DNA of 30,104 bases, from the NCBI GenBank assembly GCA_964457855.1, contig CAYWEO010000012.1, positions 1-30,104 of the forward strand, read 5' to 3'. The stretch comes from an uncultured Opitutales bacterium (GTDB taxonomy: Bacteria > Verrucomicrobiota > Verrucomicrobiia > Opitutales > CAYWEO01). The position numbers were made by a program, and so were the translations under genes. The number at the start of each line of letters is the position of its first letter. Within the stretch, counting starts at the first letter, position 1. Shown piece by piece: positions 4,162 to 30,104 of the stretch. The notes under the pieces were generated by a model that saw only the letters and a program-made list of their open reading frames with translations, was not told where the DNA came from and ran no database searches.

Positions 4162-4197
4162 CCGCTAATGCTCGTAATGGGCTGGCGGAGGGGGGGG
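4162..4197. repeat. Conserved 3'-flank motif of CC-LRR genes, copy 2
   Basis: ccgctaatgctcgtaatgggctggcggagggggggg lies between the paralog 3 stop and its terminator. The stem is degraded but the loop sequence and G-run are retained. Confidence 0.7.
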
Positions 4198-4244
4198 TAT
4201 GGAGGATTTTTGATTGTTTTGTTTTACGCTATTACGCTATAATG

Positions 4245-9859: not shown

Positions 9860-9863
9860 TGTT

Positions 9864-10991: not shown

Positions 10992-11003
10992 AGGCGGGAA
11001 ATT

Positions 11004-11088
11004 CCGGAGAACCCTATTTTTGCAAACAATGGGTTCTCGTGGACCCTCTGGACTCTTCAAAGAAAACTCTTATTCGGCAGGCATTTTT
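11004..11088. repeat. Compound palindromic repeat, truncated copy (H1 hairpin + spacer + left half of H2)
   Basis: It begins 13 nt after the ftsZ-like stop. H1 is ccggagaaccctatttttgcaaacaatgggttctcgtgg, the spacer is ccctctggactcttcaaagaaaactcttatt, and then only cggcaggcatttttg follows (left arm of H2). Confidence 0.7.
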
Positions 11089-11163
11089 GTATTTTCGCTT
11101 GACAAGTTGGTAATTATACTAAACGCATAATCGTATAAAATTTAACAATACAGGAGTTTTGAT

Positions 11164-12720: not shown

Positions 12721-12759
12721 ATTGCAATAGTTAAAATTTAACAATATAGGAGTTTTTAT

Positions 12760-14616
12760 ATGACTATCGTTTATTTATTAAAAAAAACCGCTATCGGCGC
12801 GTGCGTGTGTTTGTGCACGCTATTGGGCATTTCATCGGCATCTGCGATGAAGGAGACGCAACTATGGGAGTTTTTTCATAGATTCTTAACGGAAGATGCT
12901 CCAAAGGATATCGAGGTGCGTGATTACAAAAAGCCCTTAAAAGAGATTTTTGGCAATATGACGATTGAGGAGATTAGTATACAACTATTTGGTGATCGGT
13001 TTATGATGTCGATGATTAGTGAGGCAGGAGCTAGTCAAGATCAGGGAAATGGAAGCTGTCTAAATAATACCATCGAGTCGGAGACGATTTTCCCAGTTCT
13101 TGCTTTGACGGAAACTCAAAAAGAGAAAAATAACCAAAAGTGCCACCATTACCTTCACGATTTGAACATTCGTTTTGAGAACACAAAAGTTGTTGAGGAT
13201 AACAAAAATACATCTAATAATAAGTTGGATCTAAATCTCGGCGAAAATCCCAACGCTGTTGTTTCGTTGACGGGTTCTGAGAAGAAAAATCGCGACAAAT
13301 GTAAGCGTTCCCTTTGTGATGTGCTCATTGAGTTTAAGTCTATTACGAAATTTGAGAATAATTCTGGGCAGAAGGCCATTGTGTTTACAATCTCTGAGGA
13401 ATGCAAAGGAGACTTCAAGAAATGGCTCTGGGATGAATCAGAATTATTTCATTTTAAGCAATGGAAGAAAGAGATTGCTAAAATTAATGACCAACTCACG
13501 CGTGGCTTGTTTTTGTGCCAACTTTCTTATGACAGCGGAATGCCGATCCGTCCGGAACACCTCAAAGGAGAGTGGATGAGTCGCGTTACTCGATTTTCCT
13601 TTGGTGCGATTGAAGTTACAATGAAGCGGATTCCGGATATTGAATGGTTGATGGATGTGCTAAAGAAGTGTCCTAAGTGCAAAGAATTCAATTTGCTTTC
13701 GCACAACATCTTTAACGATGATTGTTGGTATTTAAGGCCTTTCGAGTTTCTAAATTCAGGGTTGTTAAAACAGTTGCAATTTATGCAAATTAAAAAGCTG
13801 GGGCTTTGTTTTCGTATGTATCGATCGGTTTGGAGTGACATTAAGAAATACAAGAGTCCGCCAAACGTCTATCCGCTTAAGTTCTGGAGGGAACTCGAAG
13901 ACGTTGAATTAGTTTTCGAAATGTCATTGTATTGGGCGCCAACACTTTTTGTGGGCGATCTTTTTGTGGGCGATTATACTTTCAATGATGGAAACAAACT
14001 TAAAACCGAAAGTTACAAAAAACACCTAGAGCTCGATTTCAGTCAATGTCTTTTCCTTAAAAAACTAACCATTTACGCTCCCGACGCGCGCTTTACTGAA
14101 GAGATTTTGGCAACCATACCAAATAACTCCCTTGAAGAGCTTGAGTTGCATTTTACAGTCAAGGACGAAACAGATTTCAGCTGGTTAGCAAGGTTCAAAA
14201 ATCTCAAAGTGCTTCGTCTGTGGCTTTATAAATATGACGTTTGGCAACTGAAGTTTAAAGGTCTCACAAATCCAAAACTCGAGAAGCTCGTTATATGCAT
14301 GGATAGCCATTGCTCCAAAGGTCGAAGTATTAACATTGAGCGTTTTAATTTTCTAAAAGGACTGAAAAACCTCAAGAAATTGACATTGGGTAATATCTGC
14401 TTTAAAAAGCCGGAAGATTTCTACAATTTGTTGGAGAATATGAAGGAAAAAGGTATCTCTCTGAAAAAACTTTTATTGACTAACCAAGTCTTGGATCGAG
14501 ATATCACAAGCGAGACAAATGAAAGCATATTGCGCGAGATTTACATTCCTGAGGACTGTATAATAAAGAACACGTTTAAAAATGAAGGTAAAAACTCTTT
14601 TGTAGGAGAAGAGTAA
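12760..14616 (+). CDS. Exported LRR-like protein, family 2, paralog B (N-terminal Cys module duplicated)
   Basis: AGGAG lies 7 nt upstream of ATG 12760. The signal peptide is MTIVYLLKKTAIGACVCLCTLLGISSASA/MKE. There are two copies of the module LT-x4-K-N-x2-KC...D(V/L)xIxF (LALTETQKEKNNQKCHHYLHDLNIRF and VSLTGSEKKNRDKCKRSLCDVLIEF). The C-terminal repeats include FKNLKVLRLWL, LKNLKKLTLGNICF and ELDFSQCLFLKKLTIYA. Confidence 0.75.
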   Translation: MTIVYLLKKTAIGACVCLCTLLGISSASAMKETQLWEFFHRFLTEDAPKDIEVRDYKKPLKEIFGNMTIEEISIQLFGDRFMMSMISEAGASQDQGNGSCLNNTIESETIFPVLALTETQKEKNNQKCHHYLHDLNIRFENTKVVEDNKNTSNNKLDLNLGENPNAVVSLTGSEKKNRDKCKRSLCDVLIEFKSITKFENNSGQKAIVFTISEECKGDFKKWLWDESELFHFKQWKKEIAKINDQLTRGLFLCQLSYDSGMPIRPEHLKGEWMSRVTRFSFGAIEVTMKRIPDIEWLMDVLKKCPKCKEFNLLSHNIFNDDCWYLRPFEFLNSGLLKQLQFMQIKKLGLCFRMYRSVWSDIKKYKSPPNVYPLKFWRELEDVELVFEMSLYWAPTLFVGDLFVGDYTFNDGNKLKTESYKKHLELDFSQCLFLKKLTIYAPDARFTEEILATIPNNSLEELELHFTVKDETDFSWLARFKNLKVLRLWLYKYDVWQLKFKGLTNPKLEKLVICMDSHCSKGRSINIERFNFLKGLKNLKKLTLGNICFKKPEDFYNLLENMKEKGISLKKLLLTNQVLDRDITSETNESILREIYIPEDCIIKNTFKNEGKNSFVGEE

Positions 14617-14660
14617 ACATTGAAGAGAAAGAAAACAAAAACGAGCTTATAAAGTAAGGG

Positions 14661-14708
14661 TTCCGCTCACTCTCTCAACCGTCACAACGTTCTCGATGTG
14701 GCGGGTTT
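14661..14708 (-). pseudogene. Relic of the 3' end of a rumA/rlmD gene between LRR-like paralogs B and C
   Basis: The minus strand reads acc cgc cac atc gag aac gtt gtg acg gtt gag aga gtg, encoding TRHIENVVTVERV. This is identical to the last residues of the live gene (16574-16612). There are 34/39 nt identities, and all 5 differences are synonymous third positions. Confidence 0.75.
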
Positions 14709-14747
14709 TTTTGGGATGGGCCTCGCGTGGCGGGCTTTTTGAGGGTT

Positions 14748-14786
14748 GTCTCGCGAGGATTGGCGGATTTTCGTGAGACTTTTTTT
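14748..14786 (+). terminator. Rho-independent terminator after LRR-like paralog B
   Basis: GTCTCGCGA (14748-14756) pairs with TCGTGAGAC (14771-14779) in a 9-bp stem with one G-U pair. The loop is 14 nt, followed by T7 (14780-14786). Confidence 0.65.
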
Positions 14787-14850
14787 ATATTTACGCATTT
14801 AATTGACAGTTTCATGATTATGGTGAACTAACGATATAAGGAGTTTTTAT

Positions 14851-16551
14851 ATGAATATCGTTTATTTATCAAAAAAGGCCGCTATCGGTGTATGTTTATG
14901 CACGCTGATCGGCATTTCATCGGCGTCTGCGATGAGAGTGCGGCCGGAAGGCGATAAACGCTTTTGCAGTGTCGCTATCGTCATCGAAGACAAACTTCAG
15001 AAAGATCAGAAAGATCAGAACAATCAGAAGAGTCAGAAGGAGCAGGGTGGCGAAAGTTCCCAAACCATTGCGCTGGAAGGAGCTTCCAATGTTATCGAGT
15101 GGAAGGAAAATTCCCAACTCGTTGATTTAACGGGAGTTAGAGGGAAAAATAATCAAAAGTGCAAGGAGAAGTGCCTTTGCGATGTGTGGATTGAGTTTAA
15201 GAGTATCATGAAATTTGAGAGCGAAGGTAAGCATTCGCAGCAGAAGGGGCGCAAAACGATCTTTAAAGTCACTCCAGAATACAAACAGCAGCTGATCCAA
15301 TGGCTCTTGTCCGAATTGCGCTTTTCCAAACAATTGATTGCAGACAGCAATCGGAAGGTAGCGGACATTTTAAAGAATTCGGCAATGAAAAATGGCGTTT
15401 TGCTGATTCCCGAGTATCAGATGGATGATTTCACTAAATCATTGAAATGGATTAGCCATTTGCCTCTTCATTTGGTCAGTGATGAGGGGTCTAATAGTCG
15501 TAGTTGTTGTGTTTGGGATTTTTTCGGTAGTCAAAAGCCTGCAATCCGTGCCAAATCACTGGTCAGTCTTTTGAAAAAATGTTGGCATCTTCAAGAACTT
15601 AATGCGTGGCACCAAACTAAGCCAGACCTCTCTCTTATTTTCAGCCAAGTCCGTTTTTTTGAGGAAGAAATTCCTCAATCTGAACGTATAGATGATGATC
15701 CCATGAAGACTTTAAGCCATTGCAGTGACTGTCAATACGCCTGGTGGCTCTTTCTGAAAGAAGCGGATCAAGAAAACTTATTTCATTATTTGAGTGCCCT
15801 AAAACTGACAAAGTTGGCTCTCGGTTTTTATTGGAAGCACGAAAGTAAGAACCTAAAAACCGTGGGGGAAATCAAGCAGGTAAATTTTAAGCTTCAGCCA
15901 TTACAACACCTGAAAAGCTTACAATTGTTTATTAAGGCAGAGGACGAAGGCTCGAGTCAATTGGATTCCCTTGAATTCGATTTAAACAAATGTCCCAATC
16001 TTGAAGTGCTCGATTTACATTTTTCGGGAGTACCGTTTGGAACGGACATGCTAAAAACATCCCAACTGAGCTCTCTCAAAACTTTAAAGTTGGCGTTGCA
16101 CATGAATCACAAGACTAAAAAACAATACATGGATTTCTCTTGTTTTAAGGATTGCTCAAGTCTTGAAGTCATTCATTTGTACTTTGAATCTGGATGTCTA
16201 ACAAACCTTACATGGCTAAAAAATTTAAAAAATCTACGAGAAATCAAACTATTTATGGGCTGTCCAGTCAAGTGGTCAGTGCATGCTGCTTTCTTTCTAC
16301 CGCTGACAGAATGCAAAGAACTGAGCGTGCTCCACATCCAAAATATTCATGTAAAAGATAACAATCAATTTTATGAATTGTTGAAATCTTTCCCGTGCCT
16401 AGAAGAACTTCTCCTTGGTGAGGAAGTGGTCGATGAATATATCGGTATGAACAAAAATAAAAAGAAACTGCGGGAGAATTACTTAATCAAAAAAGAGAAC
16501 TGCCGAATCAGCGGTAAGGATAAGGTGACTGGCATCTATTATGCTAACTAG
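14851..16551 (+). CDS. Exported LRR-like protein, family 2, paralog C (with Q/K-rich 9-bp repeat tract)
   Basis: AGGAG lies 7 nt upstream of ATG 14851. The signal peptide is MNIVYLSKKAAIGVCLCTLIGISSASA/MRV. It has the shared module VDLTGVRGKNNQKCKEKCLCDVWIEFKSIMKFE. The C-terminal repeats include CPNLEVLDLHF, LSSLKTLKLAL, CSSLEVIHLYF, LKNLKNLREIKLFM and FPCLEELLLGE. Confidence 0.75.
   Translation: MNIVYLSKKAAIGVCLCTLIGISSASAMRVRPEGDKRFCSVAIVIEDKLQKDQKDQNNQKSQKEQGGESSQTIALEGASNVIEWKENSQLVDLTGVRGKNNQKCKEKCLCDVWIEFKSIMKFESEGKHSQQKGRKTIFKVTPEYKQQLIQWLLSELRFSKQLIADSNRKVADILKNSAMKNGVLLIPEYQMDDFTKSLKWISHLPLHLVSDEGSNSRSCCVWDFFGSQKPAIRAKSLVSLLKKCWHLQELNAWHQTKPDLSLIFSQVRFFEEEIPQSERIDDDPMKTLSHCSDCQYAWWLFLKEADQENLFHYLSALKLTKLALGFYWKHESKNLKTVGEIKQVNFKLQPLQHLKSLQLFIKAEDEGSSQLDSLEFDLNKCPNLEVLDLHFSGVPFGTDMLKTSQLSSLKTLKLALHMNHKTKKQYMDFSCFKDCSSLEVIHLYFESGCLTNLTWLKNLKNLREIKLFMGCPVKWSVHAAFFLPLTECKELSVLHIQNIHVKDNNQFYELLKSFPCLEELLLGEEVVDEYIGMNKNKKKLRENYLIKKENCRISGKDKVTGIYYAN
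14998..15045 (+). repeat. In-frame 9-bp tandem repeat (about 5 units) in LRR-like paralog C
   Basis: cagaaagat cagaaagat cagaacaat cagaagagt cagaaggag cag, encoding QKDQKDQNNQKSQKEQ. Confidence 0.85.
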
Positions 16552-19519: not shown

Positions 19520-19547
19520 TGGAGAAAATACACGTTAAAATTAATCT

Positions 19548-20357
19548 TTAATCAAGCCCAAAATGTCGACTTGGCTGAACAAAATTGCGATTGTGCGGAT
19601 TTTGTGCAAAAAAAGCTAAAAATTGCCTCCCTTTTCCCGTTTGCGCAAGGGTGCTCGCATCCGCTGCCTTCTGGACAACGTTCAGGTTGTTTTCGTTCGC
19701 CAAATAAACGGCCTGATAACAGCTCTTGATGTCCCGAATTTCCTCGGAATTCAGGCCCCTCCGCCTAAGTCCGATTAAATTCAACCCCGAAACGCTGTCA
19801 CGCTCAGCAACCATCAAAAAATGCGGAGTGTGCTTCGTAATCGAGGCATGCCCAGCAACCATAACGCTTTCCCCAATAACGACGAATTGGTGAACGGCCG
19901 CACCCCCTCCGAAAAACGCGTAGTCTCCCACCTCCACAAATCCCGCCAACAGGGCACCATTTACGAGAATGACGTTGTTCCCCACCACGCAATCATGCGC
20001 GACGTGCGATTGCGCCATGAGATAACAATTTTCGCCAACGATCGTAAAATGGTCCCTCTGCGTTGCACGGTGGATTGTAACTCCCTCCCGAATGACCGTG
20101 TTTTTCCCGATCTTCACTCCGCTCGGCATCGTGACCTCAAACCGCAAATCCTGTGGATTCCCGCCAATCACCGCAAAGCTGTCCACCTTCACGCCCTCAC
20201 CCAAAATCGTTCCGCTACGAATAATCGTATGGCTGCCAATTGCACAATGATGCCCAATAACAGCGCCATCCTCAACGATCGCATAGGCGCCCACCGATAC
20301 CCCCTCTCCAACCTCCGCCGCACCCCCAACCAGACTGCTCGCATGCACGAAATCCAT
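19548..20357 (-). CDS. lpxA: Acyl-ACP--UDP-N-acetylglucosamine O-acyltransferase LpxA
   Basis: It has left-handed beta-helix hexapeptide repeats. SHVAHDCVVGNNVILVNGALLAGFVEVGDYAFFGGGAAVHQFVVIG closely parallels E. coli LpxA [46 protein letters not shown]. A C-terminal helical domain follows (LNLIGLRRRGLNSEEI). Confidence 0.9.
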   Translation of the reverse strand: MDFVHASSLVGGAAEVGEGVSVGAYAIVEDGAVIGHHCAIGSHTIIRSGTILGEGVKVDSFAVIGGNPQDLRFEVTMPSGVKIGKNTVIREGVTIHRATQRDHFTIVGENCYLMAQSHVAHDCVVGNNVILVNGALLAGFVEVGDYAFFGGGAAVHQFVVIGESVMVAGHASITKHTPHFLMVAERDSVSGLNLIGLRRRGLNSEEIRDIKSCYQAVYLANENNLNVVQKAADASTLAQTGKGRQFLAFFAQNPHNRNFVQPSRHFGLD

Positions 20358-20417
20358 AAACCAATAAACAACGTCCGAAAAAAAACGCGCCGTGTCGAGG
20401 GTAAAATGCGTTTTCTG

Positions 20418-20536
20418 GAGGGGGGGTATTCCGGAGAACCATTTTTTTGCAAAAAATTGGTTCTCCGGGCCTCTCCAAAAAAAACTCTTATTCGGAAGGC
20501 ATTTTTTGGCACTTTGTGCCAGAAAAATGCCTTCCG
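20418..20536. repeat. Compound palindromic repeat half-unit (G-tract + H1 + spacer + H2)
   Basis: The G-tract leader is ggagggggggtatt. H1 (20431-20468) is ccggagaaccatttttttgcaaaaaattggttctccgg. The spacer is gcctctccaaaaaaaactcttatt. H2 (20493-20536) is cggaaggcattttttggcactttgtgccagaaaaatgccttccg. Confidence 0.85.
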
Positions 20537-20732
20537 ATGTTGTTGCCCTTTAACTTATGATTTTGAGATGACAAGCAGGCGCGCGAGGTCGAGATCCTTG
20601 AGCGTATTGTGATACGTGATGAGATTGAGATCCGATGCGCAACGAACTCGCCGCTCAGAATCGAGGCCTTACCGCAACAAAAAAGAGAGCCTCACTCATG
20701 AGACCCTCCCTTTAACCTAAAGATAACTTAAA

Positions 20733-20760
20733 TTGAAACCTAAATCTTCGTTTCTAATAT
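20733..20760 (+). promoter_or_regulatory. Sigma70-like promoter pointing toward hldD, inside the repeat-bracketed 266-bp core
   Basis: TTGAAA (20733-20738), a 16-nt spacer, then TAATAT (20755-20760). The predicted leader would include the H2 and H1 hairpins (20803-20911) before ATG 20974. Confidence 0.4.
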
Positions 20761-20802
20761 AAGAGACGTCTCTTGCTAGCATTTCGTTCAAAAAAAATTC
20801 CA

Positions 20803-20911
20803 CGGAAGGCATTTTTCTGGCACGAAGTGGCAAAAAATGCCTTCCGAATAAAAATTTTTTGGCGGAAGGGTCCGGGAAACCGCCTTTTTTATAAAAAAGG
20901 GGGTTTCCCGG
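20803..20911. repeat. Compound palindromic repeat half-unit in inverted orientation (H2 + spacer + H1)
   Basis: H2 (20803-20846) is cggaaggcatttttctggcacgaagtggcaaaaaatgccttccg, 42/44 identical to the reverse complement of 20493-20536. The spacer is aataaaaattttttggcggaagggt. H1 (20872-20911) is ccgggaaaccgccttttttataaaaaagggggtttcccgg. Confidence 0.85.
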
Positions 20912-20973
20912 GAAAAGCATCCTTTTGCTTTTCTCTTGCCCTAACGAATCTATCCTGTCAATCTTTTGGGCAT

Positions 20974-21975
20974 ATGGCAAGCAAGCGGAAGAGAATTCTT
21001 GTGACTGGGGGTGCGGGGTTTATTGGGAGTGCGTTGGTGAACGAGTTGAATTGCGAGGGGCGAGCGAACATTCTTGTAGCCGATTTTTTGGGGGCTGGGG
21101 AGACGTTTAAGCATTTGATTCCGTTACGTTTTGAGGATTATATTGAGGCCGACAAGTTGCTTTCGTGGGTCCAAAATCATCCTGCACAATTGGCCGATGA
21201 GGTTCATGCCGTGTATCATCTTGGGGCGTGCGCGAACACGATGGAGCGTGACATGGGTTACCTGATCGCGAACAATTTCGAGTACACGAAGCAGTTGGCT
21301 ACGTGGGCGCTAAGGTATGATATTCCATTCGTTTATGCTTCCTCTGCAGCGACTTACGGAGACGGCTCTCAAGGAATGGAGGATTCCGCGGATGTTCTGG
21401 ACCGCTTGCGCCCCCTCAACGCTTACGCCTACTCGAAACACTTGTTCGACCAATACGCTCATCGCGCGGGAATTCTGGATCGCATCTGCGGGCTCAAGTA
21501 CTTTAACGTCTTTGGCCCCAATGAAGACCACAAGGGCGAGATGCAAAGCGTTGTCAGAAAGGCCTTTTTCCAAATCCAGACGAACGGTAAGGTACGTCTA
21601 TTTAAGAGCTATCACAAGGATTTCGCGCACGGTCAACAAAAGCGCGACTTCCTTTACGTCAAGGACGCTGTCAAAGCCACCGTGCACTGCGCAAATCAAC
21701 GCGTTACGGGCCTTGTTAACGTCGGTTCCGGCGTCGCCACCACCTGGATCGATCTCGTTACCCCCATTTTCGAGGCCCTCGACCGCCCAGTCCAAATCGA
21801 ATTCATCGATATGCCCGAGACCCTGCGCGAAAAATACCAGTACTTCACTTGCGCCAACACCCAAAAGCTGCGCTCCTCCGGCTCCCCCTCGCCCACCCCA
21901 ATCCGCCAGGCCGTCCACGACTACGTCAAAAACTACTTGCTCCCCAATCGATTTTTAGGGGATGAAAATTTATGA
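20974..21975 (+). CDS. hldD: ADP-L-glycero-D-manno-heptose 6-epimerase
   Basis: The ORF track starts at 20773, but that extension only translates the palindromic repeats. ATG 20974 gives MASKRKRILVTGGAGFIGS (Rossmann GxxGxxG). ASSAATYG, YSK, YFNVFGPNEDHKGEMQSV and KRDFLYVKD match E. coli HldD blocks (ASSAATYG, YFNVYGPREGHKGSMASV, KRDFVYVGD). Confidence 0.9.
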   Translation: MASKRKRILVTGGAGFIGSALVNELNCEGRANILVADFLGAGETFKHLIPLRFEDYIEADKLLSWVQNHPAQLADEVHAVYHLGACANTMERDMGYLIANNFEYTKQLATWALRYDIPFVYASSAATYGDGSQGMEDSADVLDRLRPLNAYAYSKHLFDQYAHRAGILDRICGLKYFNVFGPNEDHKGEMQSVVRKAFFQIQTNGKVRLFKSYHKDFAHGQQKRDFLYVKDAVKATVHCANQRVTGLVNVGSGVATTWIDLVTPIFEALDRPVQIEFIDMPETLREKYQYFTCANTQKLRSSGSPSPTPIRQAVHDYVKNYLLPNRFLGDENL

Positions 21976-21984
21976 TTCTATATT

Positions 21985-22149
21985 CGGGAACCTTTCTGTT
22001 CCATGAACAGAAAGGTTCCCGAACCCTCCAAAGAAAAGCGGTATCGGAAGGCATTTTTGCGCCTTACAGGCGCAAAAATGCCTTCCGAACAAAGATTTTT
22101 TTGGAAAGGGCCCGGGAAAACCAATTTTTGTAAAAAATGGTTTTCCCGG
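21985..22149. repeat. Compound palindromic repeat, full unit (H1-spacer-H2-spacer'-H1')
   Basis: H1 (21985-22021) is cgggaacctttctgttccatgaacagaaaggttcccg. H2 (22045-22087) is cggaaggcatttttgcgccttacaggcgcaaaaatgccttccg. H1' (22112-22149) is ccgggaaaaccaatttttgtaaaaaatggttttcccgg. The unit fills most of the hldD-holA gap. Confidence 0.9.
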
Positions 22150-22170
22150 AACGTCCTATCCTAAACTTAT

Positions 22171-23250
22171 ATGAATAACATACAATTTTTTGCGAGTCCG
22201 GATGATTTTTTAGCGGATCATGCGGCGCGTGGGGCCTTTTTGGGGGTATCTGAGGGGTGTGAGGAGTTTTGTGTGGAGGTGGTGAGTGGGTATGCGCAGA
22301 CGGTGGGGGACGTCTCGAAGCGGGTGCAGGACTGTTGTTCTGCGTTGCAAACGATACCGTTGTTTGGGGGGAGAAAAGTCGTGTGGTTTAAGAGCGTTAA
22401 CTTCTTGGCTGACAGCATCGTTGGGCGTTCTGAGGAGACGAAGCGGCAGGTGGAGGAGTGGATCGCGTTTTTGAAGCAGCAGACTTTCGAGGATTGCATC
22501 CTTATCGTGAGTGCGAGTCCTATCGATCGACGCACGCGTGCAGTTAAGTGGTTGCAGGAGAACGCCAGATTTGCCTTTCTGGAAAACGATCCCAAGGGTG
22601 TCCAGCTGGATCTCTTGGTTGATGACAGTTGCAGTACGATCGGACTTGTTTTCGAGCCCGGCGCGCGCGACATCCTTTATCAAAAGCTAAACCGCAATCC
22701 GCGGCTCGTTCTACAAGCCGTTGAAACGCTCTATTGCTACCTCGGAAAGCCTGGTATCGTCGACGAAACCCTCGTGCGAAATGTTATCGCGGACGCCCAA
22801 TCGGATGAGTTTTTCGAGGTCGTCGAGGCGTTTTATGCAGGAAATCCAAGGAATTTCCTCAAAATTCTAAAAAAATTCTTTTCTGCAACAAAAGAAATCC
22901 GTCCCGTCCTCACCGCCTTCCAAAACCGTAACCGACTCCTCATCCAACTCAAAATCCTCATCGAAGCAGGCGACCTAAAGTCTTCCTCGTCAGGCGTTTA
23001 CATCAATGCCAATACCCTAAAGGCCCTTTCTGTTAAATACTGCACCCTCTTCGGCGATTCCACCACAAAAAGCAGCTTCTGCGTCTTCTCCCAGCATCCC
23101 TTCTACCTCAGCCGTATCGCCCTCGCCGCCAACAACTTCTCCCTAAAATCTCTCCTCGACCTCCAATGCGCCCTCATCACCATCTTCCGCAAGAGCCTCG
23201 AGGGGGTTGTGCATAACCCCGTGGAGTTGTTTTTCTTAGGGACGTTATAG
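22171..23250 (+). CDS. holA: DNA polymerase III delta subunit (HolA-like)
   Basis: 359 aa. The layout is typical of HolA: an N-terminal block ending in IPLFGGRKVVWFKSVNFL, a middle ILIVSASPIDRRTRAVKWL, and a C-terminal helical domain (FFEVVEAFYAGNPRNFLKILKKFF ... RNRLLIQLKIL). The call rests on overall pattern, not on a catalytic motif. Confidence 0.6.
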   Translation: MNNIQFFASPDDFLADHAARGAFLGVSEGCEEFCVEVVSGYAQTVGDVSKRVQDCCSALQTIPLFGGRKVVWFKSVNFLADSIVGRSEETKRQVEEWIAFLKQQTFEDCILIVSASPIDRRTRAVKWLQENARFAFLENDPKGVQLDLLVDDSCSTIGLVFEPGARDILYQKLNRNPRLVLQAVETLYCYLGKPGIVDETLVRNVIADAQSDEFFEVVEAFYAGNPRNFLKILKKFFSATKEIRPVLTAFQNRNRLLIQLKILIEAGDLKSSSSGVYINANTLKALSVKYCTLFGDSTTKSSFCVFSQHPFYLSRIALAANNFSLKSLLDLQCALITIFRKSLEGVVHNPVELFFLGTL

Positions 23251-23437
23251 GGAGGGGGGGGTACCGGGAAAACCATTTTTTGCAAAAATTGGTTTTCCCG
23301 GACCCTTTCCAAAAAAACTCTTAATTCGGAAGGCATTTTTGGTCGGACCAGTAGGTCCGACCAAAAATGCCTTCCGATATGCTTTTCTTTTGAAGGGCCC
23401 GGGAAACTTTCTTTTCTTCGAAAAGAAAGTTTCCCGG
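23251..23437. repeat. Compound palindromic repeat, full unit with G-tract (H1-spacer-H2-spacer'-H1')
   Basis: The G-tract leader ggaggggggggta sits directly after the holA stop. H1 (23264-23301) is ccgggaaaaccattttttgcaaaaattggttttcccgg. H2 (23327-23376) is cggaaggcatttttggtcggaccagtaggtccgaccaaaaatgccttccg. H1' (23399-23437) is ccgggaaactttcttttcttcgaaaagaaagtttcccgg. Confidence 0.9.
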
Positions 23438-23504
23438 AATAAAACCAAGGGCTTTTTGTCAGAGAGGGTCTCTAGTTTGAGATGATAGGGACGGCTACAA
23501 AAAT

Positions 23505-23551
23505 TTTTAATTCCTGAGCGTACTGTAGTACGTGATGGGATTAAATTTTTT
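23505..23551. terminator. Interrupted hairpin with flanking T/A runs, possible weak bidirectional terminator in the holA/rpsA convergent gap
   Basis: TTTAATTCC (23505-23513) pairs with GGGATTAAA (23536-23544), and an inner CGTAC-tgta-GTACG lies between them. T7 (23545-23551) follows on the plus strand. The stem base is A/T-rich, so function is uncertain. Confidence 0.3.
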
Positions 23552-23607
23552 TGTAACGGAACCCTAGCGCTCAAAATAGACGCCCTCTCCGACAAAAAGA
23601 AAGAAAT

Positions 23608-23637
23608 CCCCAGGGGGGTGTGTTAGCCCCCTGCGGA
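23608..23637 (-). terminator. Probable terminator of rpsA
   Basis: The minus strand reads CCGCAGGGGG-ctaacaca-CCCCCTGGGG (one mismatch) followed by the T-rich atttctttcttttt. It begins 8 nt after the rpsA stop. Confidence 0.55.
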
Positions 23638-26327: not shown

Positions 26328-27908
26328 ATGAAGAAACGATCCCTGAGTTTAATGACCTTCTTGAGTCTGCTTGCGCTGAATGCCGTCGTCGCCAACCATG
26401 CGCAGGCAGATGACGCCATTCCGGGGTTTCATGACCCCCTTTACCAGTGTGATGCTTCTGGTCCGAGGAGCAACCCAATGCTGGATGGGGAATTGAAATC
26501 AGATGTGTGTGGGTTTGTTGACGCCTCTTATCGGCCAAATGCCTTAGAGGAACTCAAAAAAATGTATTCGTTTGAGGGTAAATTCGTGGCGTTTCCCCAC
26601 AGCCTTCATCCCATAGAGTTCAATAACAAGTGGATTTGTGGGGAGTTTTCCGGCATTCACGGATGGTATACGACCAGTCCCGAAAAGCCAGCTGGCCTCG
26701 TGGCTTATTGCATCAGCCACTCTCCGCAAAAGCCAAACGTGATAGTCGTTTCTTTTAAAGGGTCGCAATGTTTGACCACTCCAAAAGAAAGCCATGTGAA
26801 TAAAGACACCCCATGGATTTGGTGGGCGTTGTTTCAGATGTTCGGCATCAACGACAGCTGGCAAACGAATTTCAAGAGCATGAAAGTTCCCGTGCATGAA
26901 AATGAACTCGGCTTCGAAGGCATTGCGCATCAAGGGTATAAAGAAGTTGTGATGAGTCTGAAAGATTCTTTGATTGGGGCTATCGATTCCGCCATGCAAG
27001 ACATTGCAATACTCGGGCCCGACGCACTCAAAAAAACCATCATTATTGTAACGGGGCACAGTCAGGGCAGTGGCCGGGCAACGTTGGCGGCGCCGATGAT
27101 TATCAAGCACTTTGTGGAGACCGTTTATGGCCCTGGTGCGAAAAATCCCGATCTCAATGTGGGTTGGGTATACCTTTTTTCCCCTGCGCGTGCGGTTGAC
27201 CAAAAGACAGCTGCAAATATCTGCCAATCCGTCGGGGAGAATAATTGGGTGCGGCAATTCGGCACTTTTGATTTGGTGACGATTGTGGCACTTGGCGTTA
27301 AGTTTCAAGAATACAAAATCCTCAGCTCGTTGGTGAAATACGTCCTTTCAACGGAAGGAGGTTTTGTGTCCGTTGGGTATCCAGCCATGGACGACATCAA
27401 ACAGTTGCATAAAAGGTCTTTCGAGATCAGTTATGAAGCGGCAGTTCGTGTAGGAGATCAGAAACTGCAGAAAGCCTTCCGTTACTTACTGGATAACATC
27501 GATCCCATGACGCGTGAGTTGCAGAAAGTCTACGATTATCAATTGAAATTGAAACGTCTGAGTTATGGAACGGGCAAGCACTACCTTGATGACTCGATGT
27601 ACAATGCAAAGAGCTGGGTCAATCCGGCCTCTTGGAAGCGGTGGGTTCAGTATAACTGGTTTAAAGACAATCAGTTGCTATACTTTCGTCGTTATTGGGC
27701 CTATCTCGTGAAGGCGTTTGGGTATGCTGGTGCATTGCAGGCATTCATGGCGCTTAACCATTATGGCGCGGAGACGAACTACGATGGCGGCAAAAAGATT
27801 GGCGATCACTTTCTTTGGCGGATTCCCGATCCTGACACAAACGCCTGCCTCAAACGCGCGTATGAGCATGATCAGATCGAAAAAGGAGCAGGAAGGACAG
27901 ATTTCTGA
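26328..27908 (+). CDS. Exported class-3-lipase-like alpha/beta hydrolase, paralog 1
   Basis: The signal peptide is MKKRSLSLMTFLSLLALNAVVANHAQA/DD. Motifs follow the class-3 (fungal/eukaryotic-type) lipase order: VIVVSFKGSQ, IAHQGY, nucleophile elbow GHSQG (Ser codon 27060-27062), FSPARA, FDLVT (Asp candidate) and a distal NHYG (His candidate). Confidence 0.7.
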   Translation: MKKRSLSLMTFLSLLALNAVVANHAQADDAIPGFHDPLYQCDASGPRSNPMLDGELKSDVCGFVDASYRPNALEELKKMYSFEGKFVAFPHSLHPIEFNNKWICGEFSGIHGWYTTSPEKPAGLVAYCISHSPQKPNVIVVSFKGSQCLTTPKESHVNKDTPWIWWALFQMFGINDSWQTNFKSMKVPVHENELGFEGIAHQGYKEVVMSLKDSLIGAIDSAMQDIAILGPDALKKTIIIVTGHSQGSGRATLAAPMIIKHFVETVYGPGAKNPDLNVGWVYLFSPARAVDQKTAANICQSVGENNWVRQFGTFDLVTIVALGVKFQEYKILSSLVKYVLSTEGGFVSVGYPAMDDIKQLHKRSFEISYEAAVRVGDQKLQKAFRYLLDNIDPMTRELQKVYDYQLKLKRLSYGTGKHYLDDSMYNAKSWVNPASWKRWVQYNWFKDNQLLYFRRYWAYLVKAFGYAGALQAFMALNHYGAETNYDGGKKIGDHFLWRIPDPDTNACLKRAYEHDQIEKGAGRTDF

Positions 27909-28007: not shown

Positions 28008-30104
28008 ATGAAAATACACAAAAAATACACTAACGTAGCACTTGCAGTACTCTTGACGGTTGTCAATTGGGCGACTGTTGGGGCTACTATAAAGGAGCAT
28101 CAAGATACTCCTGAAAACCAAGGCACTTTTGAAAAAATTGACAAGAATGCCTTTAAAAAGCACCAAGAAATGCTTCAACAAAAACAGCCAAACATCGTTG
28201 TCAGCGAAGTAGTCGATGCGAAAGATCTTAAAATAGTGCAGAACGCGGAGAACAGCATCAAGGCAGGGGTGCAGGACTGGAAATTCAACCCCAATCTAGA
28301 CGAACCCCTTGTGATCCATGGTCGAGGTGGAAAGTTGAGCTTAAATCCTATCTACGATAAGGACTTCATGGAGCTGCTCTGTGGGTTTATAAGAAGAACT
28401 TACCTGATATCCAAACGGACGAACTTTGATGGAAAGATTGAGTTCTGTAACCCTGACATGCAAAAAAGTGTTTTTGGCGTCCAACAAGAGACTGCGCTCA
28501 CGGGATCAACCATTAACTATGGTAGTGAACGGTTTGAAGTGATTGCCATAAAGAGTTCTGTCTATTGTACGCAAGGGACGGCAATGCAAGAGAAGGCCCC
28601 TGGCGCGTTTGTGGCATTGGTTAAAGACAATCAGGAGAAATGCTTCCACATTTTTGTTTGCGTAAGAGGTTCTCAGTCAGAAAACTTTTTAGTCGGTCAA
28701 TTCAATCCAGAAGCAGGAAATTTATGGAACCCTTGGTCTGGATTTTTGCCTATAACCCAAAGGTGGGCCTTGTATCTTGCAGGTTATAAGGATCTGTTTG
28801 GACCAAGCTGGCAAAGTAACGAGTACGCGGTTGCTATCCCACTAAAGAAGGCTTTCTTTGGCATTGATGGCTTTGGTCATGCGGGTTTTGCTTCGCTGTT
28901 TGCAAGTATACAGCCAGGAGTGACGGAAGACGTCATCCAGATGCTCTACTTAATTCCCTCCTATTATTGGAAGTACGTAGTCATAAATGCTAGCGGGCAT
29001 AGTCAAGGAGAAGGGGTTGATAACTACCTAGCCCCGTACCTTGCCTCGATTTTCAAGGGCATTATTCCCGGCAAAAATCGGATTCATGCGATAGGCTTTT
29101 CATCGCCACGCACCTTTCAGGGACAACAAACGATTGATAATGCCTATGCAGCCATGGATGGTAAGGATAATGTCGTCAATATTTGTTCTCCGTTCGATGT
29201 GGTGACTAACGTAGCGCCAGGAAAGTATGCTGAGAACAATCTGATGGCGAAGCTTGCGCTTCCAAGACTGGGATTTAGCACAGGATATCTTTCATTTGGC
29301 CACTACATGTTTGTGAACACTGAAATACTTTTGAAAACTTCATTTCAGTTGAGCGCTGGAAAAGCCTCAGAAAGGGTCAAATTGCTGACCAAGCAGGCAA
29401 AAAAATGCAAAGACGTGAAACAATTGGCCATTATACAGGAAGCACTTAAGGCTGCTGAAGCGAACGTCCAAAAGTACACCAAGCTCCTAGAAGAAGCACC
29501 CAAATTGGCGGATCTTTATGGGAAGTTGTATCAATTGGATATAGAGAGTAAGAAGGTGTTCCAAGCATGGGAAAAACGTCAGAAAAAGACACAATCTTGG
29601 ACGAGCTTTAAGTCTTGGAAGAAGTGGGGTGTAGGCGTTTCCAAGGATACAGTGCAGTCTTTAAAGAATGTACTTTCGGGGAATGCGACAGAGCAATACA
29701 AGATCCTCGGTGAAATTATCAGCACCATGGGTGTTGCTAGTGGTGGCTCGCTAGGAGCAGGAGTGAAGCAGGAGATCGCGGTGTGCCACTTCGGAGTCCT
29801 CTGTTACAATAGTGACGATCCACGCGATCATGGTGGCGAGTTTTTCTATCCTGAGCTTCTCAATAGAATTTTCAAGCAAACAAGCTTTGAAGATTGTTTG
29901 AAGTGGGGACAAGAACACTACGCATTGGAAGATATCAGTGCCACGATACCTGCAAGCACTGCAACACCTACCAAATACGAGAGTTCGAAACCTCTGAAGC
30001 AAGAAACAAAAAAGATGCAACCCCTTCAGAATAACGAAAAAGTCAATGATTATCAACAATCAGAAATTAAACAAGTAAAAACCCAAGAAGTAAAAGCTTA
30101 TTGA
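28008..30104 (+). CDS. Exported class-3-lipase-like alpha/beta hydrolase, paralog 2, with K/Q/E-rich helical insert and tail
   Basis: The N-terminus is signal-like: MKIHKKYTNVALAVLLTVVNWATVGA. The motif order matches paralog 1: IFVCVRGSQS, FGHAGF, GHSQG (Ser codon 29001-29003), FSSPRT, FDVVTNV and a distal CHFG. The stop TGA is the last 3 nt of the window. Confidence 0.7.
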   Translation: MKIHKKYTNVALAVLLTVVNWATVGATIKEHQDTPENQGTFEKIDKNAFKKHQEMLQQKQPNIVVSEVVDAKDLKIVQNAENSIKAGVQDWKFNPNLDEPLVIHGRGGKLSLNPIYDKDFMELLCGFIRRTYLISKRTNFDGKIEFCNPDMQKSVFGVQQETALTGSTINYGSERFEVIAIKSSVYCTQGTAMQEKAPGAFVALVKDNQEKCFHIFVCVRGSQSENFLVGQFNPEAGNLWNPWSGFLPITQRWALYLAGYKDLFGPSWQSNEYAVAIPLKKAFFGIDGFGHAGFASLFASIQPGVTEDVIQMLYLIPSYYWKYVVINASGHSQGEGVDNYLAPYLASIFKGIIPGKNRIHAIGFSSPRTFQGQQTIDNAYAAMDGKDNVVNICSPFDVVTNVAPGKYAENNLMAKLALPRLGFSTGYLSFGHYMFVNTEILLKTSFQLSAGKASERVKLLTKQAKKCKDVKQLAIIQEALKAAEANVQKYTKLLEEAPKLADLYGKLYQLDIESKKVFQAWEKRQKKTQSWTSFKSWKKWGVGVSKDTVQSLKNVLSGNATEQYKILGEIISTMGVASGGSLGAGVKQEIAVCHFGVLCYNSDDPRDHGGEFFYPELLNRIFKQTSFEDCLKWGQEHYALEDISATIPASTATPTKYESSKPLKQETKKMQPLQNNEKVNDYQQSEIKQVKTQEVKAY

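What the first reader, a model, noticed from the sequence alone, without database searches (positions are those of the whole stretch)
20418..23437. Family of compound palindromic intergenic repeats with conserved outer stems and copy-specific but always self-complementary inner stems
What the sequence shows:
- Five copies occur in 30 kb, all intergenic (11004-11088, 20418-20536, 20803-20911, 21985-22149, 23251-23437).
- The basic unit is hairpin H1, then a spacer, then hairpin H2. H1 has the outer clamp CCGGGAAAACC...GGTTTTCCCGG. The spacer consensus is roughly CCCTYTCCAAAAAAANCTYTTATT. H2 has the outer clamp CGGAAGGCATTTTTG...CAAAAATGCCTTCCG.
- Full copies are symmetric: H1-S-H2-S'-H1'.
- The outer stems are nearly invariant. 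The inner stems and tips differ completely between copies, yet each remains a near-perfect palindrome.
- H2 tips are ggcac/gtgcc, gcgcc/ggcgc and ggtcggacc/ggtccgacc. H1 cores are attttttgcaaaaat, gccttttttataaaaaagggg, tttctgttccatgaacagaaa and tttcttttcttcgaaaagaaa.
- Three copies start 10-14 nt after a stop codon (ftsZ-like, hldD, holA).

Inference:
- This is the covariation pattern expected if the hairpin structure itself is selected or templated, in RNA or in single-stranded DNA.
- The architecture recalls REP/BIME mosaic elements, and superficially the conserved-ends/variable-palindromic-centre logic of attC sites. I know of no described family with these sequences.
Basis: seen in the sequence. 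Interest (0 to 1): 0.68.

Follow-up and report, generated by a model that had tools for sequence, protein, structure and literature searches.

The report
Nested hairpin repeats between bacterial genes
An uncultured verrucomicrobial bacterium carries short non-coding DNA repeats just after the stop codons of housekeeping genes; each folds into a set of strong hairpins, and they are a new, unusually nested example of the REP/REPIN-type repeats already known from other bacteria.

Summary
The repeat family is real. The H2 clamp occurs 9 times against 0.7 expected, and a profile finds exactly the five claimed places. Full copies fold far better than shuffles (z -13 and -16).

The anatomy needs correcting. 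The element is oriented, not symmetric: G-run, H1a, S, H2, S', H1b. The "copy-specific" cores fall into a few inherited types, and some copies carry uncompensated mismatches.

I found three more copies on metagenome contigs of the same or a sister organism. One shows the H2 clamp enclosing a 115-nt structured module (Y), which also lies beside two window copies.

Differences between related hairpins are mostly mirrored on the partner arm: 18 substitutions and 4 paired-indel positions against about 8 one-sided changes. Six of seven contrasts have P below 0.007. H1/H2 stems are almost purely Watson-Crick and strand-symmetric, and many compensations are transversions. This points to DNA-level maintenance. 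Y is G.U-rich and strand-biased, as an RNA would be.

There are no GTAG/CGTC tags, target-site duplications, attC core sites, Rfam matches or transposase in view.

Best reading: a lineage-specific REPIN/BIME-like mosaic palindromic repeat. Its key logic (conserved ends, variable but complementary centre) is already documented for REPINs. Interest is moderate.

The parts
10992..11089 (+). Copy A, a partial and decayed copy: G-run remnant (10992-11003), H1a (11004-11042, clamp broken on the 3' arm), spacer S (11043-11074), left arm of H2 only (11075-11089, CGGCAGGCATTTTTG). It starts 12 nt after the stop codon of the FtsZ-like gene.
   Evidence: (nhmmer E 8e-25)
20417..20536 (+). Copy B, a left unit: G-run (20417-20426), H1a (20431-20468), S (20469-20492), complete H2 (20493-20536, core TGGCAC-TTT-GTGCCAG). 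It lies 60 nt upstream of the lpxA start on the opposite strand.
   Evidence: (E 7e-40). Reproduced with 0 mismatches in an independent run, L045.
20560..20674 (+). Y1, a copy of the Y module: a long hairpin with conserved ends (TTTGAGATGA...GCCGCTCAGAAT), a conserved apex (TGAGCGTA-N4-TACGTGATG) and a variable but paired middle stem. It lies between the inverted units B and C.
   Evidence: (nhmmer E 5.5e-35)
20803..20911 (-). Copy C, a unit inverted relative to B: H2 (20803-20846, same core type as B with one uncompensated mismatch), S' (20847-20871), H1c (20872-20911, a derivative of H1a with one C.C mismatch). It ends 62 nt upstream of the hldD start. B and C form 98-nt inverted repeats (78% complementary) around 266 nt.
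   Evidence: I1; E 8.5e-34
21984..22149 (-). Copy D, a full copy in minus orientation: H1b (21984-22022), S' (22023-22044), H2 (22045-22087, core GCGCC-TTACA-GGCGC), S (22088-22111), H1a (22112-22149). It fills the hldD-holA gap, starting 8 nt after the hldD stop and ending 21 nt before the holA ATG.
   Evidence: E 2e-36; z -16.2
23250..23437 (+). Copy E, a full copy in plus orientation: G-run (23250-23261, abutting the holA stop codon), H1a (23264-23301), S (23302-23326), H2 (23327-23376, core GGTCGGACC-AGTA-GGTCCGACC), S' (23377-23398), H1b (23399-23437).
   Evidence: E 1.6e-35; z -12.8
23452..23600 (+). Y2, the second window copy of the Y module (core 23473-23590). An additional outer stem extends it (CTTTTTGTC.GAGAGGG...CCCTCTC.GACAAAAAG). 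It lies between copy E and the rpsA terminator-like hairpin (23608-23632, minus strand).
   Evidence: (E 2.7e-35)

Best explanation
These are copies of a lineage-specific, non-coding, mosaic palindromic repeat of the REPIN/BIME kind, in an uncultured Opitutae-class verrucomicrobium.

Anatomy (shown). A full copy is 165-187 nt and reads G-run, H1a, S, H2, S', H1b. As a single strand it folds into three strong hairpins. Partial units (H1-S-H2) also occur. Two inverted units can bracket a third module, Y, or the H2 clamp can enclose it.

Location (shown). Copies sit in the short gaps just after stop codons, including inside operons.

How it works (inferred).
1. The unit spreads at the DNA level as a hairpin-forming single strand. 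It is handled by a trans-acting, structure-specific enzyme encoded elsewhere in the genome, as RAYT handles REPINs. It leaves no target-site duplication.
2. The arms stay complementary mainly because of DNA-level processes. One is intrastrand template switching at quasipalindromes, which copies a change in one arm onto the other. The other is that only copies which still fold can be propagated.
3. The hairpin tip is the fastest-changing part and the place where other modules become nested.
4. Effects on the host's mRNAs (3' exonuclease barriers, partial termination) are likely by-products or secondary uses.
For: - A real repeat family with strong hairpins.
- Eight copies or partial copies at distinct gene boundaries. 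Five are in the window. F (mlaE-mlaF), G (beside tpiA) and H (after mlaF) are on JGI contigs L041-L043.
- The first hairpin lies 3-22 nt after a stop codon in six of them. Both orientations relative to transcription occur (5 against 3).
- Decayed and truncated copies exist (A; mismatches in F and H H1b), as expected for a family that turns over.
- Mirrored changes far exceed chance: 18 mirrored substitutions and 4 paired-indel positions against about 8 one-sided changes.
- Of the 16 strict compensations, 9 are transversions, which have no wobble intermediate. Paired indels are also mirrored.
- H1/H2 stems have 4 G.U in 302 pairs and equal energy on both strands. That pattern is expected from DNA-level templating or recognition, not from stepwise RNA compensation.
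- Template switching that makes imperfect inverted repeats perfect is an established mechanism (PMC7202029).
- Conserved ends, a variable hairpin-forming centre and common compensatory changes are described for REPINs (PMC3116915).
- A relative, Opitutus terrae, is rich in REPs (PMC3733652).
- Copy H shows an H2-like clamp (GGACGGCAT-CGA-TTTTGAG...CTCAAAA-TCGA-TGCCGTCC) enclosing Y. This clamp differs from canonical H2 by compensated changes and a paired 3-nt insertion.
- No coding capacity or protein-family hit in ORFs overlapping the repeats.
- Short-read contigs from other runs stop in or near the repeats (L041 starts inside H2; L044 ends inside H1a at both ends). This is expected for multi-copy DNA.
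Against: - Mobility itself is not shown. There is no empty site, no insertion polymorphism and no transposition intermediate.
- No RAYT, IS200/IS605 TnpA, other transposase or integrase is in the 30 kb window, and the rest of the genome could not be reached.
- The REP hallmark tag (GTAG or CGTC) is absent.
- Only eight copies are known. Four lie within 3 kb, so genome-wide copy number is unknown.
- The H2 clamp arms are identical in 8 of 9 occurrences in the window, while the spacers diverge by 10-35%. This suggests sequence-specific constraint (a binding site), not only hairpin maintenance.
- The consistent position right after stop codons would also fit a selected RNA function.
- Template switching is inferred from the type of changes, not observed.
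Confidence: 0.6

Rival explanations
1. The elements are primarily cis-acting RNA structures selected for host gene expression. They would act as insulators, partial terminators or 3'-exonuclease barriers that set the stability of the upstream cistron, as shown for some E. coli REP/BIMEs. The repeat family would exist because the same solution was copied to many gene ends.
For: - The first hairpin lies 3-22 nt after a stop codon in six copies.
- Copies sit inside likely operons (hldD-holA, mlaE-mlaF), where a neutral insertion site is also where an RNA stabiliser would act.
- D and F both end 21 nt before the next ATG (the mlaF start at L043 705 is my inference).
- The hairpins are very stable as RNA.
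- H2 is followed 6-10 nt later by a run of 5-8 T on either strand.
- F's H2 and H's H1b tolerate G.U on one strand.
Against: - H1/H2 stems are 99% Watson-Crick and strand-symmetric.
- More than half of the strict compensations are transversions.
- Both orientations occur relative to transcription.
- No U-tract directly follows any stem. Only one of the hairpins passes a relaxed terminator scan.
- The organism has ordinary GC-stem plus T-run terminators elsewhere (2422-2403 minus, 14748-14779 plus, and after rpsA).
- Two units lie upstream of divergent promoters (B, C), where no 3' end needs protecting.
Confidence: 0.2
2. The functional unit is the Y module, a small structured RNA gene. H1/S/H2 would be its flanking signals (terminators, insulators or processing hairpins). 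The short Y-less copies (D, E, F) would be remnants left after Y was lost from composites such as B-Y1-C and copy H.
For: - Y occurs three times, each time next to or inside H1/H2 units.
- Y behaves like an RNA: 95% of cells are paired, and 10 pairs change on both sides against 3.8 +/- 1.5 in shuffles (0 of 500) and at most 2 in slid controls.
- Y has 17 G.U in 136 pairs. All three copies fold 6-7 kcal/mol better on the same strand. The consensus energy is -36.6 against -28.6 kcal/mol on the other strand.
- In copy H the H2-type clamp continues directly into Y's outer stem.
- Y's orientation relative to H1a and H1b differs between composites, as expected if the flanking inverted units flip it.
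Against: - Five of the eight element copies have no Y nearby.
- The H2 cores show no sequence relationship to Y's interior.
- There are only three Y copies, two of which are near-identical in the middle stem.
- No promoter or terminator for Y could be identified.
- Y has no Rfam match, so no function is known.
Confidence: 0.12
3. The conserved clamps are double-stranded DNA binding or uptake sites (nucleoid protein, gyrase, IHF-like, or uptake-signal pairs as in Neisseria terminators). The hairpin potential would be a side effect of inverted pairs of the site.
For: - The H2 clamp arm is identical in 8 of 9 window occurrences, while neighbouring spacers diverge.
- The stems are strand-symmetric and Watson-Crick only.
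- BIMEs bind IHF, gyrase and Pol I (established knowledge).
Against: - The distance between the two H2 clamp arms varies from 15 to 22 nt, and to about 115 nt in copy H. This is incompatible with a dimer on duplex DNA but compatible with recognition of a folded stem.
- H1 clamps change sequence while keeping pairing, which a sequence-specific duplex site would not allow.
- The clamp never occurs alone, except in the decayed copy A.
Confidence: 0.06
4. The elements are integron attC-like recombination sites that mark gene cassettes.
For: Only the superficial logic applies: conserved ends, a variable paired centre and a position at gene 3' ends.
Against: - No RYYYAAC...GTTRRRY core-site pair is in any copy.
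- No integrase is in the window.
- The flanked genes are single-copy housekeeping genes (ftsZ-like, lpxA, hldD, holA, rpsA, tpiA, mlaEF).
- Units also occur upstream of genes and in both orientations.
Confidence: 0.01

Closest known systems
REPINs / REP sequences mobilised by RAYT (TnpA-REP) transposases, e.g. Pseudomonas fluorescens SBW25 GI-GIII
   Same: - Short non-coding extragenic repeats.
- Palindromic units in inverted pairs that fold into a long hairpin in ssDNA or mRNA.
- Conserved end regions, with a less conserved centre that keeps its length and pairing; compensatory changes are common (PMC3116915).
- Singlets and decayed copies exist.
- No target-site duplication.
- Relatives in the same class (Opitutus terrae) carry many REPs (PMC3733652).
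   Different: - No GTAG or CGTC tag.
- Units are longer (38-50 nt hairpins; whole element 165-187 nt against about 70-110 nt).
- Three separate hairpins with two different end hairpins (H1a, H1b).
- The most conserved part is the central clamp (H2), not the ends.
- A G-run partner for the spacer.
- A 115-nt structured module can be nested in the central clamp.
- No RAYT has been seen, although the genome is not available.
BIMEs (bacterial interspersed mosaic elements) of E. coli and relatives
   Same: - Mosaic of several kinds of palindromic unit in alternating orientation, joined by conserved linker motifs.
- Located after stop codons and between cistrons of operons.
- Partial and composite arrangements occur.
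   Different: - No sequence similarity to PU Y/Z units or their linkers.
- Different phylum.
- Nested rather than tandem organisation.
- Protein partners (IHF, gyrase, Pol I) are untested here.
Bacterial MITEs that are long imperfect palindromes (Correia/NEMIS, ERIC/IRU, RUP, RPE)
   Same: - About 100-200 nt and non-coding.
- The whole element is an imperfect inverted repeat.
- Co-transcribed with neighbouring genes.
- Breaks short-read assemblies and creates spurious ORFs.
   Different: - No target-site duplication at the ends of D, E, F or H.
- No parent insertion sequence is known.
- The termini are themselves self-folding hairpins rather than simple TIRs.
Integron attC sites
   Same: Imperfect palindromes at gene 3' ends, with conserved outer and variable inner paired parts, recognised as folded single strands.
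   Different: The core sites R''/R' are absent, there is no integrase, the neighbours are housekeeping genes, and both orientations and upstream positions occur.
Quasipalindrome template-switch mutagenesis (Ripley model; E. coli thyA and lacZ reporters)
   Same: It provides a known DNA-level route by which a change or indel in one arm of an inverted repeat is copied onto the other arm, making the repeat perfect (PMC7202029). This matches the mirrored transversions and paired indels seen here.
   Different: It is a mutational mechanism, not an element family. Its action here is inferred from the spectrum of differences, not observed.

Membership tests
REP / REPIN (RAYT-associated) | Short (20-40 bp) imperfect palindromes, repeated and extragenic | tested here: met
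   H1 hairpins are 38-41 nt and H2 hairpins 43-50 nt. All 8 copies are intergenic. The sizes are at or just above the usual upper limit.
REP / REPIN (RAYT-associated) | GTAG (or CGTC) tetranucleotide tag at one end of the stem-loop (PMC3733652) | tested here: not met
   Of 17 hairpins examined with 8-nt flanks, none has GTAG/CTAC. One (D H1a) has CGTC nearby, and other copies of the same hairpin do not share it.
REP / REPIN (RAYT-associated) | Inverted doublet of units forming one long hairpin, with a less conserved spacer that keeps pairing | tested here: met
   D, E and F are H1-S-H2-S'-H1 inverted doublets. S pairs with S' around H2 in D. Mirrored changes are in large excess.
REP / REPIN (RAYT-associated) | A cognate RAYT (Y1 HUH transposase) gene flanked by the repeats | not testable with these tools
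   None is in the 30 kb window or the 5.7 kb of JGI contigs.
REP / REPIN (RAYT-associated) | High copy number across the genome | not testable with these tools
   There are 5 copies in 30 kb and 3 in 5.7 kb of contigs found through the repeat itself, which is a biased sample. Short-read contigs from other runs stop in or near the repeats.
MITE | Terminal inverted repeats and small non-coding size | tested here: met
   The whole element is an imperfect inverted repeat of 165-187 nt. ORFs across it have no family hits.
MITE | Target-site duplication flanking the element | tested here: not met
   The flanks of the complete copies D, E, F and H share no direct repeat of 3 nt or more (flank table).
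MITE | A parent insertion sequence with the same termini | not testable with these tools
BIME | Built from E. coli-type palindromic units (Y, Z1, Z2) and their linker motifs | tested here: not met
   H1, H2 and S bear no resemblance to the PU consensus (direct reading, compared with the consensus from my own knowledge). The organism is a verrucomicrobium. No BLAST against E. coli genomes was run.
Integron attC | R'' (RYYYAAC) and R' (GTTRRRY) core sites at the two ends | tested here: not met
   The pattern scan found no such pair in any element in the window or in L043. The only pair lies inside the holA coding region.
Integron attC | Array of promoterless cassettes next to an intI integrase | tested here: not met
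   The neighbours are ftsZ-like, lpxA, hldD, holA and rpsA, and there is no integrase.
Intrinsic (Rho-independent) terminator | GC-rich stem followed within 0-2 nt by a U-tract | tested here: not met
   Only E's H2 passes a relaxed scan. No H1 does, and T-runs lie 6-10 nt beyond H2. Ordinary terminators exist elsewhere in the window.
Any Rfam family | Score at or above the family's gathering threshold | tested here: not met
   There were 0 hits at gathering thresholds. Permissive searches returned only sub-threshold matches, mostly miRNA-precursor hairpin models, for the window region and L043.

The most novel reading that the evidence does not exclude
The system is a hierarchically nested hairpin element in which the conserved H2 clamp acts as a docking position for exchangeable inserts. 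These inserts are short palindromic cores in most copies, or the 115-nt Y module, which would be a previously undescribed structured RNA carried and flipped by the flanking inverted units. In other words, it would be a mobile, protein-free RNA-gene cassette. A related reading is that arm complementarity is kept almost entirely by replication template switching. That would make this a natural record of the process operating genome-wide.
Probability: 0.15. Interest if true: 0.75.

Novelty: new variant of a known kind. Interest (0 to 1): 0.45.

Why it matters
- It extends REPIN/BIME-like mosaic palindromic repeats to a deep, uncultured branch of the Verrucomicrobiota. This version lacks the canonical tag and has an unusual three-hairpin, nested build.
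- The two module types sit side by side and behave differently. H1/H2 are Watson-Crick only, strand-symmetric, rich in compensating transversions and show mirrored indels. Y is G.U-rich and strand-biased. A complete genome would therefore be a clean natural test of how much apparent RNA-like covariation in repeats is produced by DNA-level templating rather than selection. This is a caveat for covariation-based RNA discovery.
- In practice the repeats already distort public data. They give a 67-residue false N-terminal extension of HldD, two "hypothetical proteins" that are translations of the repeat, and short-read contigs that stop in or near the repeats.
- Y is a candidate new structured RNA.

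Tried and rejected
- **Genome-collection scan with both H2 clamp arms.** It gave 7 single hits in unrelated taxa, all chance hairpins with no H1 or S nearby.
- **Metagenome scan with a looser H2 pattern.** It gave 31 loci and again no family member. Copy F was missed because its left clamp has a C>T change.
- **Protein search with a 941-aa concatenation of repeat translations.** Nothing scored; random word matches swamped the candidate list.
- **Protein search with a profile of the six lineage-specific LRR-like paralogues, meant to reach sister contigs.** It returned only three distant LRR proteins, one of them annotated as eukaryotic.
- **Orthologous hldD loci of the nearest relatives (65% identity).** Synteny is lost and there is no trace of the element.
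- **Look-ups of holA and lpxA.** They found only contigs of about 1.2 kb identical to the window, so there is no second haplotype.
- **Viral-contig scans.** The H2R-S' junction gave nothing. The Y apex gave one hit inside a coding region without Y flanks, which is about the number expected by chance.
- **Other searches.** BLAST against plasmids found no match. Rfam found nothing.
- **Considered and rejected:** attC sites, CRISPR-like arrays, canonical terminators and coding potential. The short ATG...TGA frames in Y are not conserved as peptides. A hammerhead or group II domain V reading of the Y apex was also rejected: the core nucleotides do not fit and Rfam is silent.
- **Idea that H2 cores are leftovers of Y's stem after apical deletion.** I found no sequence support.

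Full report

Yes. The H2 clamp CGGAAGGCATTTTT (up to 2 mismatches) occurs 9 times in 30 kb against 0.71 expected. None of 100 dinucleotide-preserving shuffles reached 9. The five copies align over flank, H1, spacer and H2. An nhmmer profile built from that alignment recovers exactly those five places (E from 7e-40 to 8e-25) and nothing else in the window.

The two full copies fold far better than shuffled controls. Copy E as single-stranded DNA gives -73.2 kcal/mol (z -12.8). Copy D as RNA gives -102.1 kcal/mol (z -16.2). In both cases 0 of 200 shuffles did as well.

An independent short-read assembly from another run (L045) matches window 19536-20722 with no mismatch. Copy B and its neighbour are therefore not assembly artefacts.

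**2. Corrected anatomy**

The element is oriented, not symmetric. From one end to the other it contains:
- G-run: GGAGGGGGGG
- H1a: CCGGGAAAACC-ATTTTTTGCAAAAAT-TGGTTTTCCCGG
- S: CCCTYTCC-A7-CTCTTATT
- H2: CGGAAGGCATTTTTG-core-CAAAAATGCCTTCCG
- S': an inverted, diverged copy of S
- H1b: CCGGGAAAC-TTTCTTTTC..GAAAAGAAA-GTTTCCCGG, a different hairpin from H1a

The G-run pairs with the C-rich start of S, and S pairs with S'.

| Copy | Coordinates | State |
|---|---|---|
| D | 21984-22149 | full, minus orientation |
| E | 23250-23437 | full, plus orientation |
| B | 20417-20536 | G-run, H1a, S, H2 |
| C | 20803-20911 | an inverted unit (H2, S', H1c) |
| A | 10992-11089 | decayed; ends after the left arm of H2 |

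B and C form 98-nt inverted repeats around a 266-nt segment (I1).

A, B, D and E share one H1a core, and H1c is a derivative of it. B and C share one H2 core type. C's H2 core carries an uncompensated mismatch, H1a has a conserved T.T mismatch, and A has several one-sided changes.

**3. Organism and the search for more copies**

The neighbouring genes are housekeeping genes of a Gram-negative bacterium: a divergent FtsZ, MurJ, LpxA, PlsY, aspartate kinase, HldD, HolA and RpsA. The nearest HldD homologues are only 65% identical, and the named ones are from Opitutales, Puniceicoccales and other Verrucomicrobiota. The source contig is 30,234 nt, so it is essentially the window itself.

Exact-pattern scans of the species-representative genomes and of JGI metagenomes found only unrelated hairpins. 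Two protein-based attempts to reach sister contigs failed.

An exhaustive HMMER search with a stop-free translation of copy E did succeed. It found a 34-aa "hypothetical protein" that is a translation of another copy. Its cluster and the contigs that encode its members gave three new copies on JGI contigs:
- F (L043 514-683): a full copy between mlaE and mlaF. The same locus was assembled identically in two samples (L042, L043).
- G (L041 1-95): cut by the contig end, 3 nt from the tpiA stop codon.
- H (L043 1468-1743): a composite after mlaF.

**4. The nested module Y**

Beside B and beside E lies a second repeated module, Y: Y1 at 20560-20674 and Y2 at 23473-23590. A third copy sits in composite H (L043 1531-1648, minus strand).

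Y is a long hairpin with three kinds of region:
- conserved ends: TTTGAGATGA ... GCSGCTCARAAT
- a conserved apex: TGAGCGTA-N4-TACGTGATG, which contains a UGA/GAU internal loop
- a middle stem that is GC-rich in Y1 and YH but AT-rich in Y2, and still paired

On the three-copy alignment, 95.2% of cells are paired, against 87.4 +/- 1.9 in shuffles. Ten pairs change on both sides, against 3.8 +/- 1.5 in shuffles (0 of 500 shuffles as high) and at most 2 in the slid controls.

In composite H, Y is enclosed by an H2-like clamp: GGACGGCAT-CGA-TTTTGAG ... CTCAAAA-TCGA-TGCCGTCC. The canonical clamp is GGAAGGCAT-TTTTTG ... CAAAAA-TGCCTTCC. The position of H2's "variable inner stem" can therefore hold a whole structured module. 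Y2 is enclosed by a different long outer stem.

Y's orientation relative to H1a and H1b differs between the window composite and H. This is what recombination between the flanking inverted units would produce (inference).

**5. Covariation, quantified**

I registered the arms of related hairpins by hand from the folds and compared them in seven independent contrasts.

| Kind of difference | Count |
|---|---|
| Mirrored substitutions | 18 |
| of which strict Watson-Crick to Watson-Crick compensations | 16 (7 transitions, 9 transversions) |
| Mirrored indel positions | 4 |
| One-sided changes | about 8 (two are padding artefacts of my representation) |

Six of the seven contrasts had chance probabilities from below 5e-6 to 7e-3. 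The seventh consisted of a single unmirrored change.

Examples:
- H1b of D against E: three differences on each arm, all three compensating, none disruptive.
- H1a of B against H: five consecutive compensated pairs (AACCA/TGGTT to GGGGT/ACCCC).
- Canonical H2 against the clamp in H: compensated changes plus a paired 3-nt insertion.

So the hairpins are maintained as hairpins, though not without exception. F and H have imperfect H1b stems and A is decaying.

**6. RNA or DNA?**

On the strands as given, H1/H2 stems contain 4 G.U among 302 predicted pairs (1.3%). Their folding energies are essentially equal on the two strands. Y contains 17 G.U among 136 pairs (12.5%), and all three copies fold 6-7 kcal/mol better on the same strand. 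Y's consensus energy is -36.6 kcal/mol against -28.6 on the opposite strand.

In H1/H2, transversion-type compensations (which have no wobble intermediate) and mirrored indels predominate. I infer the following:
- H1/H2 complementarity is kept mainly at the DNA level. One route is the known quasipalindrome template-switch mechanism, which makes imperfect inverted repeats perfect (PMC7202029). Another is propagation only of copies that still fold.
- Y looks like a transcribed RNA.

The H2 cores can be related to one another by mirrored indels. The five-prime arm of E's core shares 6 of the 7 bases of the B/F-type arm in order (direct reading). This fits a fast, mirrored mutational process at hairpin tips (inference).

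**7. Genomic context**

Six copies start 3-22 nt after a stop codon: ftsZ-like 12, hldD 8, holA 0-13, mlaE 11, tpiA 3 and mlaF 22. Copies D and F sit between adjacent, probably co-transcribed genes. Each ends 21 nt before the next ATG. For mlaF this uses an in-frame start at L043 705, which I infer from the sequence. B and C lie in the divergent lpxA/hldD promoter region.

Orientation relative to transcription is mixed (5 against 3). No stem is followed directly by a U-tract; T-runs lie 6-10 nt beyond H2. Only E's H2 passes a relaxed terminator scan. Ordinary GC-stem plus T-run terminators are present elsewhere, at 2422-2403 (minus), 14748-14779 (plus) and after rpsA.

**8. What it is not**

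- There are no GTAG or CGTC tags on 16 of 17 hairpins. The one CGTC is not shared by other copies (criteria from PMC3733652).
- There is no target-site duplication at the ends of the complete copies.
- No copy has an attC core-site pair.
- No transposase, RAYT or integrase is in the window or on the small contigs.
- Rfam has no family at gathering thresholds, and only sub-threshold hairpin-type matches at permissive ones.
- No similar DNA is in the plasmid collection or in viral contigs.

**9. Interpretation**

The best-supported reading (confidence 0.6) is a lineage-specific REPIN/BIME-like mosaic palindromic repeat. It would spread as a hairpin-forming unit through a trans-acting enzyme that is not in view, landing in the neutral gaps after stop codons. 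Its arms would stay complementary through DNA-level templating and through the need to fold. Shown: the family, its architecture, its locations, the excess of mirrored changes, the strand symmetry and the nesting of Y. Inferred: mobility, the enzyme and the templating mechanism.

Rivals:
- a selected RNA stabiliser or insulator (0.2)
- flanking signals of a Y RNA gene (0.12)
- duplex DNA binding sites (0.06)
- attC-like sites (0.01)

**10. Novelty and score**

A relative, Opitutus terrae, is known to be rich in REPs (PMC3733652).

What is new here:
- an unrelated sequence family without the canonical tag
- a three-hairpin oriented architecture with the central clamp as the most conserved part
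- the nesting of a G.U-rich structured module inside that clamp

I rate it a new variant of a known kind, with interest 0.45. The most novel reading not excluded is a protein-free mobile cassette that carries a new structured RNA, or a genome-wide natural record of template-switch symmetrisation. I give that about 0.15 probability.

**11. Limits**

- Only eight element copies and three Y copies are known.
- The three extra copies were found through a translation of the S'-H1a region, so they are biased towards copies that contain H1a.
- Arm registration was done by hand.
- It is not established whether the JGI contigs come from the same strain as the window. Their modules are 90-100% identical to the window's.
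- Genome-wide copy number, the mobilising enzyme and transcription are all unknown.

Noticed in passing
window 20560-20674 (+), 23473-23590 (+); L043 1531-1648 (-): Y module: a roughly 115-nt hairpin in three copies. It has conserved ends, a conserved apex (TGAGCGTA-N4-TACGTGATG with a UGA/GAU tandem-GA-type internal loop) and a variable but paired middle stem. Ten pairs are compensated, it is G.U-rich, and it folds better on one strand. It has no Rfam match and is a candidate new structured RNA.
   Followed up: yes
window 20773-21975 (+); proteins P0001, P0125, P0127: The public gene call for HldD (400 aa) starts at a TTG inside copy C, adding about 67 false N-terminal residues; the real start is the ATG at 20974. 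Two database "hypothetical proteins" (34 and 69 aa) are translations of the repeat.
   Followed up: yes
window 516-5336 (-) and 11164-16551 (+): Six paralogous lineage-specific proteins sit in two tandem clusters. They have weak eukaryote-type (F-box-associated) LRR matches and share N-termini and 5' regions (83-92% DNA identity over the first 50-120 nt). The only database relatives found were three distant LRR proteins, one annotated as an insect F-box/LRR protein. This hints at a host-associated lifestyle.
   Followed up: partly
window 9744-10991 (+): The FtsZ homologue is very divergent: 122.9 bits against the NCBIfam equivalog cut-off of 295.2.
   Followed up: no
window 22096-22152 and 23261-23317: holA is bracketed by inverted copies D and E, whose S-H1a segments are 95% complementary over 57 nt. 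The heptamer GGACGTT/AACGTCC also lies on both sides. hldD is bracketed by C and D in direct orientation. Such arrangements could promote inversion or deletion of essential genes.
   Followed up: no
L043 1479-1495 compared with window 20442-20458: The conserved T.T mismatch of H1a appears as A.A in copy H, although S lies on the same side. This is the signature expected if the inner part of the hairpin was flipped by recombination between its own arms.
   Followed up: partly
L041 position 1; L044 both ends (window 22122 and 23290): Some short-read contigs from other samples stop inside the repeats: L041 starts inside an H2 core, and L044 ends inside H1a at both ends. L045 spans copy B intact and ends in the spacer before copy C. 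This is consistent with a multi-copy repeat fragmenting assemblies.
   Followed up: partly
window 359-387, 2394-2422, 4125-4153: A repeated GC-rich hairpin plus T-run (a canonical terminator on the minus strand) follows each of the three minus-strand LRR-like paralogues. It was evidently duplicated together with the genes.
   Followed up: partly
window 26328-27908 (+) and 28008-30104 (+): Two adjacent large proteins with class-3 lipase domains. The second runs off the end of the window.
   Followed up: no
L043 1657-1681: A perfect mini-hairpin (TTTTTTGCTCA-GCA-TGAGCAAAAAA) occupies the H2 position next to S'-H1b in composite H. It resembles H2 without its outer clamp.
   Followed up: no
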